The notes: generated by a model not told the origin, from the sequence alone. Positions 179 through 63,681 are shown, numbered from the stretch's first letter. The stretch: 64,000 bases of DNA from an uncultured Chlamydiae bacterium (GCA_963730605.1 CAVSSM010000001.1:320001-384000); one strand, 5' to 3'. A program made the numbers and translations.

Positions 179-210
179 AGCGCGAGGGTAACGCCTCGCG
201 CTTTTTTTTT
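179..210 (+). terminator. Rho-independent terminator
   Basis: Stem agcgcgagg / cctcgcgct with a 6-nt loop, followed by a T-tract. Confidence 0.85.
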
Positions 211-373
211 ATACCAAAACAACCTGAAGAATCGGGAATTTGACCAGGAGGCTCCTCAGAATTTGTGTTCGGAGCTAAAGACCATTGCGCGTGCGCAAGG
301 CGCGAGTGAGAACAAAAATTCTGAGGTAAAGCCGACGCAGTCAAAAACCGATTCTTCAGGTTGTTTCGGTATA
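210..373. mobile_element. Palindromic MITE-like element
   Basis: Terminal IR tataccaaaacaacctgaagaatcgg / ccgattcttcaggttgtttcggtata. Inner IR cctcagaatttgtgttc / gaacaaaaattctgagg. Confidence 0.8.
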
Positions 374-473
374 GAGCCTGCCGGCCCAAAAATGCTCCAT
401 TTTTTGGGACCCCTTCTTTCACAGCTTTTGCGCTCGACTTGACCGAGAAGACCTCGATTCCTATGATGAGGAC

Positions 474-2000
474 ATGAGCACCCTTTGGTTCCTTCTCGCA
501 ACTCTGCACTGTTTCGCAAGCTCATCCGCATTGAGCGCCCTCTATTCCACACTCGACCCCACCTCAGTGGCCCAGCACTTTGCGTTCTATGAGCTCTATC
601 CCAAAACGGTCGAAGGAAAGGAAGCCCTGAAACATGCCTGGGCCCTTTTGAGCGGAGGGGCGTCAGGCAGCGATCCAGAGCTGATCCTGCCCACTCTCGA
701 TGTCCAGCCGATCCTATCCCTCGTCAACCGGGCCGGCAATGAAGACGCCCCCCTTTTGAATCAGGATCAATTGACCGTCATCGGGAAATTATCCAAACAT
801 CTAGGAAACAGGAAACTCCAAGGATTCGGCCTTTGGGACCAAGAAGCCATTCTCAAGCTCTCCCCTGGCGAGGTGGATTTAGGAAGAGCCCTTCTGATCG
901 CCGAGTTGGGAGTTGGTAGGGAAGAGCGGCAAAAGATCGAAAGCTATGAAGCGTCGCTGGATTTGATGTCGCTCCAAATCGCCGCCCGCCTGAAACCAAA
1001 TGCCGGCCCTTTGGAAAAGATCAGGGCTATCAACGATTACATCTTTTCGGAAATGCGCTTCCGTTTTCCTCCCCATTCCCTCTTTGCAAAAGAGATCGAT
1101 GTCTATACATTCCTCCCGTCTGTCCTCGATAGCCGCCGCGGAGTCTGTTTGGGCGTTTCAATCCTCTACCTTTGCCTCGCTCAAAGACTCGAGCTCTCTT
1201 TACAGGCGATTACCCCTCCCGGCCATATTTACGTCCGGTATGTCGATACCGAAGGGATTGCCACGAACATCGAAACGACTGCGAGAGGCATCGACGTCCC
1301 GACGGAACACTACTTGGGCGTGGAGACAAAAAAACTGCAGGAGCGGACGATCCGAGAGTGTGTCGGGCTCGCCTTCATGAACCAGGCCGCCTTGAGCTGG
1401 CATCGCAACGATCCGGCCGGTGCGGTCGCCCTCTACGAAAAAGCGCGCCCGTTCCTCAATGCTGACGACTACCTTTTGAACTTATTCCTCGGATTTAACT
1501 ATTTAGCCTTAGGAAAAGAAAAAGAAGGAAAAGCGCTCCTCAAGCAGATCCAAGGCAAGGCTCCCGAGCACGTCCTTGTCGCCGATACGATCGCCGAAGA
1601 TTATTTAGCGGGCAGGGTCGATGCCGAAGGAATCCAGGCGGTCTTTGCGGAAGTGGATGCAACCAAAACCTCGATCCTTGCAAAACAAAAGCGCCTCGAT
1701 GCAACGCTTGCCAAATACCCCCGCTTTCGCCAAGGGTACTTTCACATGGCCGTAACGTGGATGCAGCTTGGCCGGGAAAAAGAAGCGTTGCCGTTTTTGG
1801 AAAAATGCGCTGGCCTAGATCCGGAAAATCCCACCGTGAATTATTATCTTGCGGCAATCCAGTTCCAGCGGCATAATTTCAACCAGGCTTGGAAGCATTT
1901 GAGGGCCGCCGAAGCCATCGTGCGGCAAAAAGAGCACGAGCCAAAGGCGCTTCTCGAACTGAGACGCGCCCTCCAAAGGCAATGTCCGGAGACCCTATGA
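474..2000 (+). CDS. Transglutaminase-like (SirB1-type) and TPR protein, conserved next to chlamydial clpB
   Basis: Motif 'SVLDSRRGVCLGVSILYLCLAQRL...PPGHIYVRY', C-terminal TPR-like helices, N-terminal signal-like segment. Confidence 0.75.
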   Translation: MSTLWFLLATLHCFASSSALSALYSTLDPTSVAQHFAFYELYPKTVEGKEALKHAWALLSGGASGSDPELILPTLDVQPILSLVNRAGNEDAPLLNQDQLTVIGKLSKHLGNRKLQGFGLWDQEAILKLSPGEVDLGRALLIAELGVGREERQKIESYEASLDLMSLQIAARLKPNAGPLEKIRAINDYIFSEMRFRFPPHSLFAKEIDVYTFLPSVLDSRRGVCLGVSILYLCLAQRLELSLQAITPPGHIYVRYVDTEGIATNIETTARGIDVPTEHYLGVETKKLQERTIRECVGLAFMNQAALSWHRNDPAGAVALYEKARPFLNADDYLLNLFLGFNYLALGKEKEGKALLKQIQGKAPEHVLVADTIAEDYLAGRVDAEGIQAVFAEVDATKTSILAKQKRLDATLAKYPRFRQGYFHMAVTWMQLGREKEALPFLEKCAGLDPENPTVNYYLAAIQFQRHNFNQAWKHLRAAEAIVRQKEHEPKALLELRRALQRQCPETL

Positions 2001-61632: not shown

Positions 61633-61808
61633 TATGAACCTATCCTCCAATCCTTAATGATTCATTTATGGTCGATTTTGAGGCGATTTTTCGTCGTCGA
61701 CCGCCCGAAGTAAATATCGGGACGGTGATCTTTACGAGGGCGGAGGCGCGAAAAGCGCCCAAAAGCGTGCCGTAAAGGGATCGTGAAGAATTGGAGGATA
61801 GGTTCATA
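61633..61808. mobile_element. Palindromic MITE with TGAACCTATC ends
   Basis: TIR tatgaacctatcctccaat / attggaggataggttcata. Apex taaatatcgggacggtgatcttta. Confidence 0.85.
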
Positions 61809-62030
61809 GACAGTCGGGTTGTTACGTTGACTTTCCCCAAATCGGGCTGTGCGCAGTCCGATCATTCGGAAACTAGATGAACCTATCTCAATAAATCTAT
61901 TTCGCGATCTTTGAGCGCCTTTTGGCCGATTTTGGACTCGCTCGTCGCTTAGAGGGTGTCTCCTCGCTTTAATACAATGCTAAAAACTTATTAAACCATA
62001 TTAATTTTTCCAAATTACACACAACTTGGG

Positions 62031-62747
62031 TTACACCCTCATATTGTGGTAGACAGCGTCGACGTCGTCGAGGTTCTCCAGCCATTCGATGAGGGCAATG
62101 TTCGAATCGGCATCCATGTCGGACACCTCGATCCAAGATTTGGGGATCATCGCAAGCTCCGCTTCTTCGCATTTGCCGCCCGCCTTCTCGATCGCCTCTT
62201 TGACTTGGGTAAGACAAGCGACCGGGGTCGTCACGACATAGGCTTCATCCTCGGCGGCCATATCTTCCGCCCCGCCTTCGCCGGCAAGAAGAAAAAGGGG
62301 ATCCTCCCCAATGGATGATTTCGAGACCCGGAGAACTCCTTTCCTCTCGAAGTTATAAGAAACGGCGCCCGGCGTCGCCACCGTCCCGCCGCATTTATTG
62401 GTCGCGATCCGGATATCAGCAGAGATCCGGTTTTTATTATCTGTCATAATATCGACGATGAGCCCAACGCCCCCGTATCCGTAGAGTTCATAGGTCATCT
62501 CCGTATAGTCTTGGGTGTCGGAGGAGGCGGCTTTTTTGATGTTCCTATCGACATTGTCGCTGGGAAGATTCGCGTCTTTGGCTTTTTGGATCGCGGTGCG
62601 CAGCTTGCTATTGGACTTCGGATCGGGCCCCCCTTGCTTCACAGCCGATATGATCTCCTTCATAATCCGGCTGAAAATCTTCCCCTTCTTCTTATCGGAC
62701 CGCTCCTTTCTGTGTTTGATGTTGGCCCATTTGCTATGACCTGCCAT
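62031..62747 (-). CDS. yebC: YebC/PmpR family protein
   Basis: 'MAGHSKWANIKHRK', 'YELYGYGG', 'TDNKNR', 'DDVDAVYHN'. Confidence 0.95.
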   Translation of the reverse strand: MAGHSKWANIKHRKERSDKKKGKIFSRIMKEIISAVKQGGPDPKSNSKLRTAIQKAKDANLPSDNVDRNIKKAASSDTQDYTEMTYELYGYGGVGLIVDIMTDNKNRISADIRIATNKCGGTVATPGAVSYNFERKGVLRVSKSSIGEDPLFLLAGEGGAEDMAAEDEAYVVTTPVACLTQVKEAIEKAGGKCEEAELAMIPKSWIEVSDMDADSNIALIEWLENLDDVDAVYHNMRV

Positions 62748-63681
62748 GACGCCTCCTCTTAAAAAACTCAAGACTCTTCTTTTCCCATTCTTTTGCAAGA
62801 TCGAACTCGGCGAACTCCTTTTCCCTCTTGCGGAATTCAGCCGTATGGCTATGGACCGACCCTCGCGCGTCGATGCGGGCCGGAATCGCGGCGTGGAGCA
62901 TCTCATGGTAGACGATGAACTCGACGAAGTAGAGAGGCACGCCCCGCTCGTCGAGGAGCGGGTTGATCCGGATCTGATTGCGGTGCCGATCGTAACTGCC
63001 GAATGTCATGCACCTAAATGCACCGATACGCCGGTGCGTCGACCAACCGATCGCGACGTCAAGGTTCGGAAAATACCGCTTGCCGACCCGATCGCGGAGT
63101 TCATGGAGATCGTATACACGCCCTTTTGCAACGAGGGAGTCCGGCGCTATCCGCTCCTTCGAAAAATAGAGATGCGCCATTTGCCGCACGATCCTGCCCG
63201 CATGCCGATCTCCCTTCACGGCATAACCGATGACCGCTTCGAGGACGGGGCTAGGGGCTTTGGCAAAGAGGCGGTGGAGGCGGAGATGGACGCCCTGACG
63301 CTCTTTGCGGCAAGAGAAAAAGGAGGTCCGGTTCTCATGCCAGGCCAGACGGAGCGGCACGGGACAGAGCGCCGCTAATTTGATCGATGCGATCTCTTCG
63401 AAAGACAACATACTGCGCGCGGTTGGCTTCTTAAAATTTGGACGGGCTGCGACTTCGCCAAATCGCTCTGCTCCGCGAGAAAAATGGTCCATCCGAGGAC
63501 CCTTTTTCTCGATTCCGCAGTCCTCGGAAATATTGCCTTCGGATATTTCCTTCGCCCCGTCCCCAAAAACGATGCGTTGTTTGGGGGCCCCTGGGGAGGT
63601 CGGTCGGACCGCTTCGCTTCGATTTTGCTTTGTCTCGCTTGCGTCCAAATTTAAAAATCCTTCCCGCGCGCAGTATATCAT
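62734..63681 (-). CDS. SprT-like/M48-type zinc metalloprotease; starts at 63681 (through the element) or at 63411
   Basis: 'FGSY...IRINPLLD..VPLYFVEFIVYHEMLH...H..EFR'. Confidence 0.8.
   Translation of the reverse strand: MIYCAREGFLNLDASETKQNRSEAVRPTSPGAPKQRIVFGDGAKEISEGNISEDCGIEKKGPRMDHFSRGAERFGEVAARPNFKKPTARSMLSFEEIASIKLAALCPVPLRLAWHENRTSFFSCRKERQGVHLRLHRLFAKAPSPVLEAVIGYAVKGDRHAGRIVRQMAHLYFSKERIAPDSLVAKGRVYDLHELRDRVGKRYFPNLDVAIGWSTHRRIGAFRCMTFGSYDRHRNQIRINPLLDERGVPLYFVEFIVYHEMLHAAIPARIDARGSVHSHTAEFRKREKEFAEFDLAKEWEKKSLEFFKRRRHGRS
63410..63676. mobile_element. Palindromic element (267 bp) in frame at the 5' end of the SprT-like gene
   Basis: TIR atactgcgcgcgg...ttaaaatttggacg / cgtccaaatttaaa...ccgcgcgcagtat. 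Contains the small hairpin unit at ~63555-63594. Confidence 0.85.

What the first reader, a model, noticed from the sequence alone, without database searches (positions are those of the whole stretch)
210..63676. Dense system of modular, frame-preserving palindromic elements concentrated at translation starts and stops
Seen: at least 15 elements of 45-300 bp (210, 2459, 2658, 18446, 28891, 40049, 43029, 43754, 47747, 50137, 52201, 53582, 58457, 58997, 61633, 63410). The full-length ones fold as long imperfect hairpins with different terminal IRs. Five sit at or within ~30 nt of a start codon (doxX, dnaG, rlmD, porin, sprT-like) and three overlap a stop codon (2459, 29071, 52376). Many are crossed by stop-free frames. 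Several share an apex of the form (G/T)CAATATCG...AT(A/C)T(T/G). Known: Rickettsia palindromic elements (RPEs) insert in frame into proteins, and MITEs are mobilised in trans. Inference: this is an RPE-like system in a chlamydial lineage that adds peptide to N-termini and/or controls initiation through RNA hairpins. I am not aware of it being described here, but cannot verify novelty.
Basis: partly seen in the sequence, partly recalled or inferred. Interest (0 to 1): 0.85.

Follow-up and report, generated by a model that had tools for sequence, protein, structure and literature searches.

The report
End-swapping hairpin mini-transposons in environmental chlamydiae
This uncultured chlamydia carries about 250 tiny hairpin-shaped jumping DNA pieces that appear to borrow the enzymes of its larger transposons; some sit inside genes without breaking the reading frame, as known from Rickettsia, and, unusually, one conserved middle piece is found fitted with many different pairs of ends.

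Summary
The elements are real: all 16 listed positions hold hairpin MITEs or deletion derivatives. The genome has 254 in 27 end classes, with class-specific target duplications. Several ends match resident insertion sequences, and relatives show empty sites. "Frame-preserving" holds mainly for the TA/IS630-type class: 15 of 36 coding insertions leave the ORF open, and six in-frame inserts were verified against orthologues (RlmD +58 aa, E1 dehydrogenase +54, RecD2 +105). Enrichment at stop codons survives a target-matched null (27 vs 10); enrichment at starts does not (9 vs 8). This much is a new chlamydial case of MITEs with RPE-like behaviour, and this scan noted both before (this genome, other chlamydiae). 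Two things go further. (1) One ~125-bp palindromic core carries about 15 different, internally symmetric ~20-bp end pairs at a fixed register across chlamydial families. Cores track the genome, not the end type, the inverse of the usual MITE pattern. (2) A 25-bp mini-hairpin inside some MITEs also moves alone and sits in frame in core genes (25 of 43 free sites). No regulatory function is shown. New variant of a known kind.

The parts
212..371 (.). MITE, class G (TA duplication, IS630-type ends), 160 bp, intergenic
   Evidence: a 96%-identical copy in G003:C217
384..408 (+). diverged copy of the 25-bp mini-hairpin (SH)
2461..2625 (.). MITE, class B (165 bp, 5-bp duplication TATTA); ends match an IS at C9:129508-130644; supplies the stop of ORF 1997-2461
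2641..2800 (.). MITE, class F (TA, 160 bp), 15 nt after the B element
18111..18146 (.). solo left end and subterminal part of a class C MITE (remnant)
18446..18489 (.). 44-bp internal-deletion derivative of class D1, about 20 nt upstream of a probable start at 18509 that has a strong RBS (start choice inferred)
25893..25966 (.). truncated class C MITE (left half)
28894..29071 (.). MITE, class H (178 bp, 3-bp duplication) at the ispE stop; absent at the G003 site
37986..38010 (+). diverged SH mini-hairpin
40050..40208 (.). MITE, class I (AC-type ends), 7 nt upstream of the doxX ATG (40216); empty site in G003
43029..43203 (.). MITE, class A (A-core with IS5-type ends, TGA duplication)
43754..43926 (.). 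MITE, class A; its core (about 43774-43901) is the conserved cassette found with about 15 different end pairs
47735..47971 (.). MITE, class A5; ends resemble the resident 1.36-kb IS (16 of 20 nt); a solo class C end abuts it at 47731
50138..50435 (.). MITE, class E (TA, 298 bp, mosaic interior with SH at 50179 and 50256), ending 3 nt upstream of the dnaG ATG (50134); not present at the G003 site
52201..52375 (.). MITE, class A; its TTA duplication is the stop codon of the LRR gene 52376-53416
53582..53657 (.). 76-bp internal-deletion derivative of class A, 60 nt upstream of htpG
58457..58628 (-). MITE, class D2 (A-core with IS5-type GAACC ends); +174 bp in frame after codon 2 of rlmD, adding 58 aa; next in-frame start is codon 90
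59000..59297 (+). MITE, class E; +300 bp in frame after codon 10 of ORF 58969-60066 (signal-peptide-like N-terminus); SH at 59073 and 59143; empty site in G003
61636..61805 (.). MITE, class D1 (170 bp, AT duplication), intergenic
61810..61960 (.). nested remnants: U-type end, D4-type left end at 61879, A-type end
63411..63675 (-). MITE, class F (265 bp, SH-like hairpin inside); +267 bp in frame after codon 2 of ORF 62734-63681; a changed base in the downstream duplication creates a new ATG right after the element

Best explanation
These are non-autonomous miniature inverted-repeat transposons, moved in trans by several kinds of resident IS transposase. SHOWN: class-specific target duplications; ends identical or near-identical to resident IS ends; empty sites in relatives; near-identical copies. 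INFERRED: (a) Position reflects survival. Insertions are purged from coding regions and promoters, and are kept at stop codons (often rebuilt by the TA/TNA duplication), in convergent spacers, and in frame near N-termini or in loops. (b) In-frame copies, mostly TA/IS630-type with stop-free units in multiples of three, are translated as neutral or mildly harmful peptide inserts, as with RPEs. (c) 'Modularity' has two sources. First, a long-lived palindromic core has been re-capped several times with ends of different IS, at a fixed register and on both sides alike, and recombination among paralogous cores within each genome keeps the cores alike and stops at the unlike ends. Second, TA-type interiors are mosaics of small hairpins. 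One of these (SH, 25-bp core, inserts of about 36-45 bp, open in all six frames) also spreads alone, with no fixed duplication, probably by template-switch copying and slippage.
For: 254 paired-end elements in 27 end classes; perfect duplications in B 23 of 24 (5 bp), D1 14 of 14 (2 bp), A 28 of 35 (3 bp), F 47 of 64 (TA), C 18 of 25 (5 bp). End matches: B to an IS at C9:129508 (18 of 18 nt, also a 5-bp duplication); S to the 1243-bp IS (18 of 18); F313 to the 14-copy IS630 with a 352-aa open frame (18 of 19); D3 to the 0.92-kb IS5-type element (11 of 11); A resembles a 915-bp DUF4096 element in G243. Empty sites in G003 at rlmD, doxX, ORF 58969, ORF 63681 and the ispE stop. Deep-coding depletion: 13 observed vs 113 expected among 200 elements. 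Stops 27 vs 10.3 and starts 9 vs 7.8 under a target-PWM null. TA-type in coding regions 16 of 19 multiples of three vs 40 of 70 outside, p=0.034. Inserts absent from orthologues: E1 dehydrogenase 5 of 5, a 1057-aa protein 4 of 4 matched genomes, RecD2 4 of 4 genomes whose orthologue covers both sides. dN/dS vs G003 is 0.13-0.26 for six invaded genes and 0.10-0.14 for four controls. Core swap: A vs D2 cores 98% identical with ends 45%; M vs A2b share a core under AC-type and GAG-type ends. Mean core identity is 0.902 for same genome/different end (30 pairs) and 0.836 for different genome/same end (91 pairs), permutation p=0.0004. SH: 160 copies, 60 in paired MITEs, 25 of 43 unique-flank sites in ORFs >=250 aa vs 66% of random positions; presence/absence differences at ispE, PriA, PlsX, an S9 peptidase and others.
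Against: No partner IS was found in G000 for class A or several minor classes (genome 83% complete). Class C matches its candidate IS only loosely. Stop-codon enrichment (2.6-fold) exceeds what the target sequence explains, so active targeting of gene ends or a benefit at the RNA level is not excluded. A whole-genome null gave a start excess (12 vs 4.7, p=0.003), which I discount because uncalled genes inflate its 'far' class. Class D has 5 copies on the start codon (0.5 expected; 4 vs 1.9). Gene and start calls come from my own simple caller. Invaded genes have somewhat higher dN/dS than controls, and pairwise values cannot isolate the time after insertion, so recent loss of function is possible. 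Translation of the inserts is not shown. Re-capping versus core conversion cannot be separated with these data, no intermediate of a swap was caught, the pairs are not independent, and cores were picked by likeness to the G000 core.
Confidence: 0.72

Rival explanations
1. One reading: a domesticated system aimed at translation starts and stops that adds N-terminal peptides and controls initiation through RNA hairpins.
For: Five window elements at starts. TA-type insertions are tolerated far better in the first 45 nt of genes (7 vs 2.6 expected) than deep inside (11 vs 48). Four D3-class copies duplicate the AT of ATG and make an upstream frame ending near the rebuilt ATG. Stable hairpins.
Against: No start excess in the spacer test, and depletion upstream of starts and in divergent spacers. 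Every window site that could be compared is empty in a ~91%-identical relative, so none is conserved. Most classes break the frame.
Confidence: 0.08
2. The conserved core is a functional chassis (a protein-binding or bent-DNA spacer, or a recombination-promoting palindrome) that lets a MITE lineage change transposase by acquiring new ends. Re-capping is frequent and ongoing, not ancient.
For: About 15 end types on one core in 37 of 40 loci with a detectable end pair, total length mostly 169-176 bp. The core is found in 19 of 150 genomes of the phylum, in five families. 43 invariant columns, with asymmetries between the arms kept. 12 of 38 predicted pairs have a two-sided change. Cores 99% identical under two end types in G020. 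The A core has T/A tracts 10-11 bp apart and is predicted bent in two wedge models.
Against: One end type shared by G018 and G020 (ends 90% alike) carries each genome's local core (87% alike), which gene conversion of old subfamilies explains without new capping. No pooled 10.5-bp periodicity over 24 families (z=0.0), and only 5 of 24 (3 of 24 in the second model) are bent beyond shuffles. Conservation may reflect recent horizontal spread.
Confidence: 0.3
3. The long hairpins are removed from, or cut in, the RNA (intron-like or RNase III-type processing), so in-gene copies are harmless without being translated.
For: Near-perfect end-to-end pairing of the whole element; presence in essential-looking genes.
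Against: Precise removal would not need multiples of three or open frames, yet in-gene copies are enriched for both, and the frame-breaking classes B and C are absent from deep coding regions (0 of 46).
Confidence: 0.05
4. SH is a REP-type element moved by an HUH (RAYT/IS200-like) transposase rather than by template switching.
For: Size, hairpin shape, tandem arrays and in-gene copies resemble intragenic REPs (PMC3733652, section 15 read).
Against: No GTAG or CGTC tag beside the stem. Only a 53-position Y1_Tnp fragment in G000 and no hit in four SH-bearing relatives (G006, G007, G011, G018), while SH-free relatives have strong hits. Insert limits vary.
Confidence: 0.2

Closest known systems
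Bacterial MITEs with IS-derived ends (RUP/IS630-Spn1, Correia/NEMIS, ERIC, YPAL), as reviewed in PMC2229807 and PMC10969869 (passages read)
   Same: 100-200 bp, terminal inverted repeats, target duplications, long stem-loops, ends matching resident IS, mostly intergenic, occasional in-frame fusions.
   Different: About 27 end classes in one 2.2-Mb genome. The same interior under many unrelated end pairs; the passage seen in PMC11602168 mentions only the opposite case (same ends, different interiors).
Rickettsia palindromic elements (RPE; Ogata et al. 2000, 2002, not read; as summarised in PMC10969869, PMC2229807, PMC3733652)
   Same: Palindromic ~150-300 bp repeats in frame inside conserved proteins of an intracellular bacterium, N-terminal and internal.
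   Different: Here ends and duplications tie the coding class to IS630-type transposases present in the genome. Only 15 of 241 copies are open in-gene insertions (nearly half for RPEs, per PMC10969869). No sequence comparison with RPEs was made.
Intragenic GTAG/CGTC REPs (PMC3733652)
   Same: For SH: 20-40 bp hairpin, singles and arrays, in frame in DNA-metabolism and other core genes. The bias to 3' ends and convergent spacers also matches the MITE positions.
   Different: No GTAG/CGTC tag, no associated RAYT found, and SH is also a building block of IS630-type MITE interiors.
Cyanobacterial small dispersed repeats (SDR; Elhai et al. 2008, not held, recalled; one passage on SDR5 seen in PMC4390886)
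   Same: Very short mobile modules without IS-type ends that enter genes in frame (recalled).
   Different: SDR5 inserts precisely into HIP1. No fixed target was seen for SH.

Membership tests
MITE | terminal inverted repeats | tested here: met
MITE | target-site duplication of class-specific length | tested here: met
   (main classes); imperfect or unresolved in minor classes I, N, M, A4, D2
MITE | short, no transposase of its own, many similar copies | tested here: met
   median identity 95-99% in A, B, C, D1; 84% in the mixed F 160-bp set
MITE | ends shared with an autonomous IS | tested here: met
   for B, S, F313, D3, A5; A only in a relative; IS family names other than the Pfam hits are recalled from end motifs and sizes
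MITE | empty orthologous sites | tested here: met
MITE | transposition by the transposase in trans | not testable with these tools
   needs an assay
RPE (works like) | in-frame, stop-free palindromic insertions in conserved genes, absent in orthologues | tested here: met
RPE (works like) | insert is translated and the protein stays active | not testable with these tools
   no RNA holder listed; dN/dS only indirect
RPE (member) | sequence homology to Rickettsia RPE families | tested here: inconclusive
   one element against plasmid records gave no match; no Rickettsia chromosome or RPE sequence was compared
GTAG/CGTC REP (for SH) | GTAG or CGTC tag abutting the stem | tested here: not met
   flank consensus
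GTAG/CGTC REP (for SH) | associated RAYT/Y1 transposase | tested here: inconclusive
   genomes incomplete; no co-occurrence
Known structured RNA (Rfam) | match at gathering score | tested here: not met

The most novel reading that the evidence does not exclude
Environmental chlamydiae host a MITE lineage whose heritable unit is a conserved ~125-bp palindromic core, not its ends. The core is repeatedly and symmetrically re-capped with the ~20-bp ends of whichever IS is resident, mostly IS5-type and, for a second core, across IS5- and IS982-type ends. The element thereby switches transposase 'hosts' and persists across families. A second tier, a 25-bp six-frame-open mini-hairpin, parasitises these MITEs and enters essential genes almost without counter-selection.
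Probability: 0.33. Interest if true: 0.75.

Novelty: new variant of a known kind. Interest (0 to 1): 0.5.

Why it matters
MITEs are defined by their ends and are expected to die with their transposase. A core that outlasts and exchanges its ends would explain how such elements persist across families, and it makes a direct test possible: swap cores and ends in a transposition assay. The genome also offers at least six orthologue-verified 54-105-aa peptide insertions and about 25 mini-insertion sites in long genes (PriA, PlsX, DnaX, MurC-Ddl, MurG, acetate kinase), with empty alleles in close relatives for those checked. That is a natural series for studying how selfish DNA adds protein sequence, so far studied mainly in Rickettsia. 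Practically, these inserts mislead start-codon and domain annotation in this group.

Tried and rejected
Start-codon targeting: seen under a whole-genome null, lost under the spacer-restricted and PWM-weighted nulls. General bent-DNA spacer: no pooled 10.5-bp periodicity; weak peaks at 9.5 and 11-11.5 bp; wedge parameters were recalled; only A, B, C, D1 and P were bent in one model; kept as a lead for the A core only. Class C ends around a 380-aa transposase looked like an autonomous partner but are an IS nested in a C MITE. No DDE_Tnp_4 or DDE_Tnp_1_2 hit in G000. RAYT for SH: not supported. Other interior hairpins as free elements: only SH has many unique-flank copies among the 28 largest clusters. 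Peptide constraint on the A core: single-base indels and no codon pattern by eye. A recalled likeness of one relative's end type to RPE-1 ends: no match in plasmid records, otherwise untested. Structure model of the E1 protein: mean pLDDT 44.8, not used. The PDB search matched only the beta half. Expression: no RNA holder listed. Four DNA runs laid as contigs covered the stretch in pieces, and none joined across a whole element. The core tree was poorly resolved (4 of 54 branches starred), so I rely on the pairwise test.
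Full report
Setting. The window is G000:C1:320001-384000 of a 2.22-Mb, 12-contig, 83%-complete genome. G003 is about 91% and G001 about 80% identical in the window.

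Observation. All 16 listed positions carry elements. Genome-wide there are 265 strong inverted-repeat pairs against 0 in a shuffle. Fuzzy pairing of ends gave 254 elements in 27 end classes, covering 47,145 bp or 2.1% of the genome, plus 234 unpaired ends that include IS ends. Of the 158 elements outside the TA classes, 123 are 155-190 bp long. All 32 representatives fold end to end. Rfam has no match to them.

They are MITEs. Duplications are class-specific: TA for E/F/G, TNA for A, 2 bp for D, 5 bp for B and C. The genome holds many IS: 29 DDE_3 and 24 DDE_Tnp_1 hits. End matches are B to an IS at C9:129508 (18 of 18 nt), S 18 of 18, F313 18 of 19 to a 14-copy IS630 with an open 352-aa frame, D3 11 of 11, A5 16 of 20, and C loosely. 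Class A has no partner in G000 but resembles a 915-bp DUF4096 element in G243. Family names IS982, ISAs1, IS1634, ISAzo13 and the IS5 subgroups are recalled from motifs, not looked up. G003 has empty sites at rlmD, doxX, ORF 58969, ORF 63681 and the ispE stop, and lacks the dnaG element. Elements nest in each other and in IS.

Position. I excised the 248 outermost elements in silico, called genes with my own dicodon caller, dropped 7 TA-class pairs with no TA on either side, and classed 241 sites. Among the 200 in five main groups, 13 are deep in genes against 113 expected. A whole-genome null gave excesses at stops (33 vs 6.5) and starts (12 vs 4.7), but uncalled genes inflate its far class. 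For the 69 of 200 lying in spacers of at most 300 nt between two confident genes: stops 27 vs 10.2, 4-30 nt after stops 13 vs 9.6, starts 9 vs 7.6, 6-30 nt before starts 8 vs 14.9, convergent 16 vs 7.4, divergent 11 vs 21.5. A target-PWM null gave the same. So gene ends are favoured and starts are not. A similar 3'/convergent bias is described for REPs and stem-loops (PMC3733652 section 15; PMC1590033 passages). One exception: four D3 copies duplicate the AT of ATG.

Frame. Unit lengths are multiples of three in 56 of 89 TA-type, 14 of 38 A, 4 of 27 D, 2 of 23 C and 0 of 23 B copies. TA-type copies in genes are 16 of 19, against 40 of 70 outside (copies are not independent). Ten of 13 classes have more stop-free frames than shuffles. 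Of 36 coding-class sites, 15 leave the host ORF open, 8 of them deep. Hosts include a fused E1 dehydrogenase, its E2 partner, RecD2, an O-antigen ligase, ZnuA, a sulfatase and RlmD. Six inserts were checked against orthologues. E1 +54 aa is absent in 5 of 5 and lies seven residues before the GDG motif (that GDG binds thiamine diphosphate is recalled). A 1057-aa protein has +73 aa, absent in 4 of 4 matched genomes. RecD2 +105 aa is absent in the 4 genomes covering both sides. In the window, RlmD +58, ORF 58969 +100 and ORF 63681 +89 are absent in G003. In rlmD the next in-frame start is codon 90, past the conserved N-terminus, so the extension is probably made; in ORF 63681 a new ATG follows the element, so it may not be. 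dN/dS against G003 is 0.13-0.26 for these six and 0.10-0.14 for four controls: still purifying, slightly higher, and blind to very recent loss. Three TA-type coding copies are one base off frame; the assembly also shows split clpB and rlmN, so some may be sequencing errors.

Modularity 1: one core, many ends. The rlmD element has the class A interior (98% identical) with different ends (45%) on both sides, and a third end pair (A2) occurs too. The whole element matched 15 of 41 genomes, often over the core only. The core matched 19 of 150 genomes of the phylum, in five families. In 37 of 40 fetched loci an end pair was found, with about 15 types by eye, at one register and mostly 169-176 bp in all. 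Among 29 selected copies, cores are more alike within a genome under different ends (0.902, 30 pairs) than between genomes under the same end (0.836, 91 pairs), permutation p=0.0004. Pairs are not independent, and the tree was weak. Classes M (AC-type ends) and A2b (GAG-type ends, 3-bp duplication) share another core, as do Z and A6. B, D1 and D3b cores are distantly related to it or to each other, which explains the shared apex. The core alignment has 43 invariant columns and 12 of 38 pairs with a two-sided change, which does not tell RNA from DNA constraint or from arm-to-arm copying. At least the origin of so many end types needs repeated re-capping (inference). Whether present-day sharing is fresh re-capping or gene conversion among old subfamilies is open; the end type shared by G018 and G020 with local cores favours conversion.

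Modularity 2: a mini-hairpin. TA-type interiors are mosaics of small hairpins. One, SH (4-C/4-G-bounded 25-bp stem-loop), has 160 copies within 4 mismatches, 60 of them inside paired MITEs. Of the other 100, 47 copies at 43 sites have unique flanks, and 25 of the 43 lie in ORFs of 250 aa or more, against 66% of random positions, in 5 of 6 frames. Hosts include PriA, PlsX, TamB, DnaX, MurC-Ddl, MurG, NAD kinase, acetate kinase and MsrB. Filled and empty alleles differ between relatives: ispE +39 and a solute-binding protein +36 bp in G003; +36 and +78 bp in G000; PriA +13 aa and PlsX +14 aa against G002. There is no fixed duplication, tandem arrays of 36-51 bp occur, there is no GTAG/CGTC tag, and no linked Y1 transposase was found. 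SH was found in 7 of 24 same-family genomes and 0 of 16 others, and in 0 of 200 genomes drawn from the order.

Known or new. MITEs with hairpins and in-frame fusions, RPEs and intragenic REPs are described (PMC2229807, PMC10969869, PMC2759123, PMC3733652: passages; section 15). Ten literature searches listed no paper on chlamydial MITEs or RPE-like inserts, or on one MITE core under many ends. PMC10969869 and PMC11602168 have no 'chlamyd' in the main text, and the Rhabdochlamydia paper PMC9723776 has no 'MITE' or 'palindrom'. The library lacks most subscription papers, and the supplements of PMC11602168, a 183,232-genome MITE census, were not seen and may list these elements. Ogata 2000/2002 and Elhai 2008 were not read. 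This scan had already noted the MITE swarm elsewhere in this genome and RPE-like inserts in other chlamydiae; these are unchecked notes, not support.

Verdict. Real elements. The MITE/RPE part is a new instance of known biology. The exchange of ends on a conserved core, and the free mini-hairpin, are the parts a specialist would find unusual. New variant of a known kind; interest 0.5.

Noticed in passing
window 2869-5460 and 38944-39972: clpB and rlmN are each split into two ORFs, with small indels against G003; these may be assembly errors or recent pseudogenes.
   Followed up: partly
G000:C2:327622, C3:37134, C5:41442, C9:155368: D3-class MITEs duplicate the AT of a start codon, creating an upstream frame from the native start; in three of four it ends within a few codons of the rebuilt ATG (possible translational coupling, MIRU-like).
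   Followed up: partly
G000:C5:65883-66231 and C7:8767-9077: SH has expanded into tandem 36-bp arrays (10 and 9 units); the first forms a 12-aa repeat in front of an MsrB domain.
   Followed up: partly
G000:C1:446776-448362: Three-level nest: an IS inside a class C MITE inside a class B MITE; the C-plus-IS composite also occurs at C3:22954.
   Followed up: partly
G000:C1:286485, C4:1, C8:29770: Three copies of a 1.95-kb repeat with a 445-aa ORF; its ends look like a group II intron (recalled motif, not scanned).
   Followed up: no
window 46342-47619 and 52376-53416: Two paralogous LRR genes; the first has an exact 90-bp tandem duplication (47248-47427).
   Followed up: no
L271 (G014:C55:14610-15020) and L313: End type starting AGACCTC, apparently TA-flanked, on the A core; by recall it resembles Rickettsia RPE-1 ends, which would link RPEs to IS ends. 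No match in plasmid records.
   Followed up: partly
G000:C9:106900-109900 (L254): A secretin ORF carries an SH-bearing MITE-like segment in frame near its N-terminus that my pairing missed, so the in-gene count is a floor.
   Followed up: no
G000:C1:703152-737986, C10:1-20199, C8:9-8762: Large inverted self-matches (35, 20 and 9 kb) at contig ends; possibly assembly artefacts that duplicate a few elements.
   Followed up: no
L199 (genome contigs): A relative has two tandem SH units (+26 aa) in a conserved ORF whose G000 orthologue (C7:147341) lacks them.
   Followed up: partly
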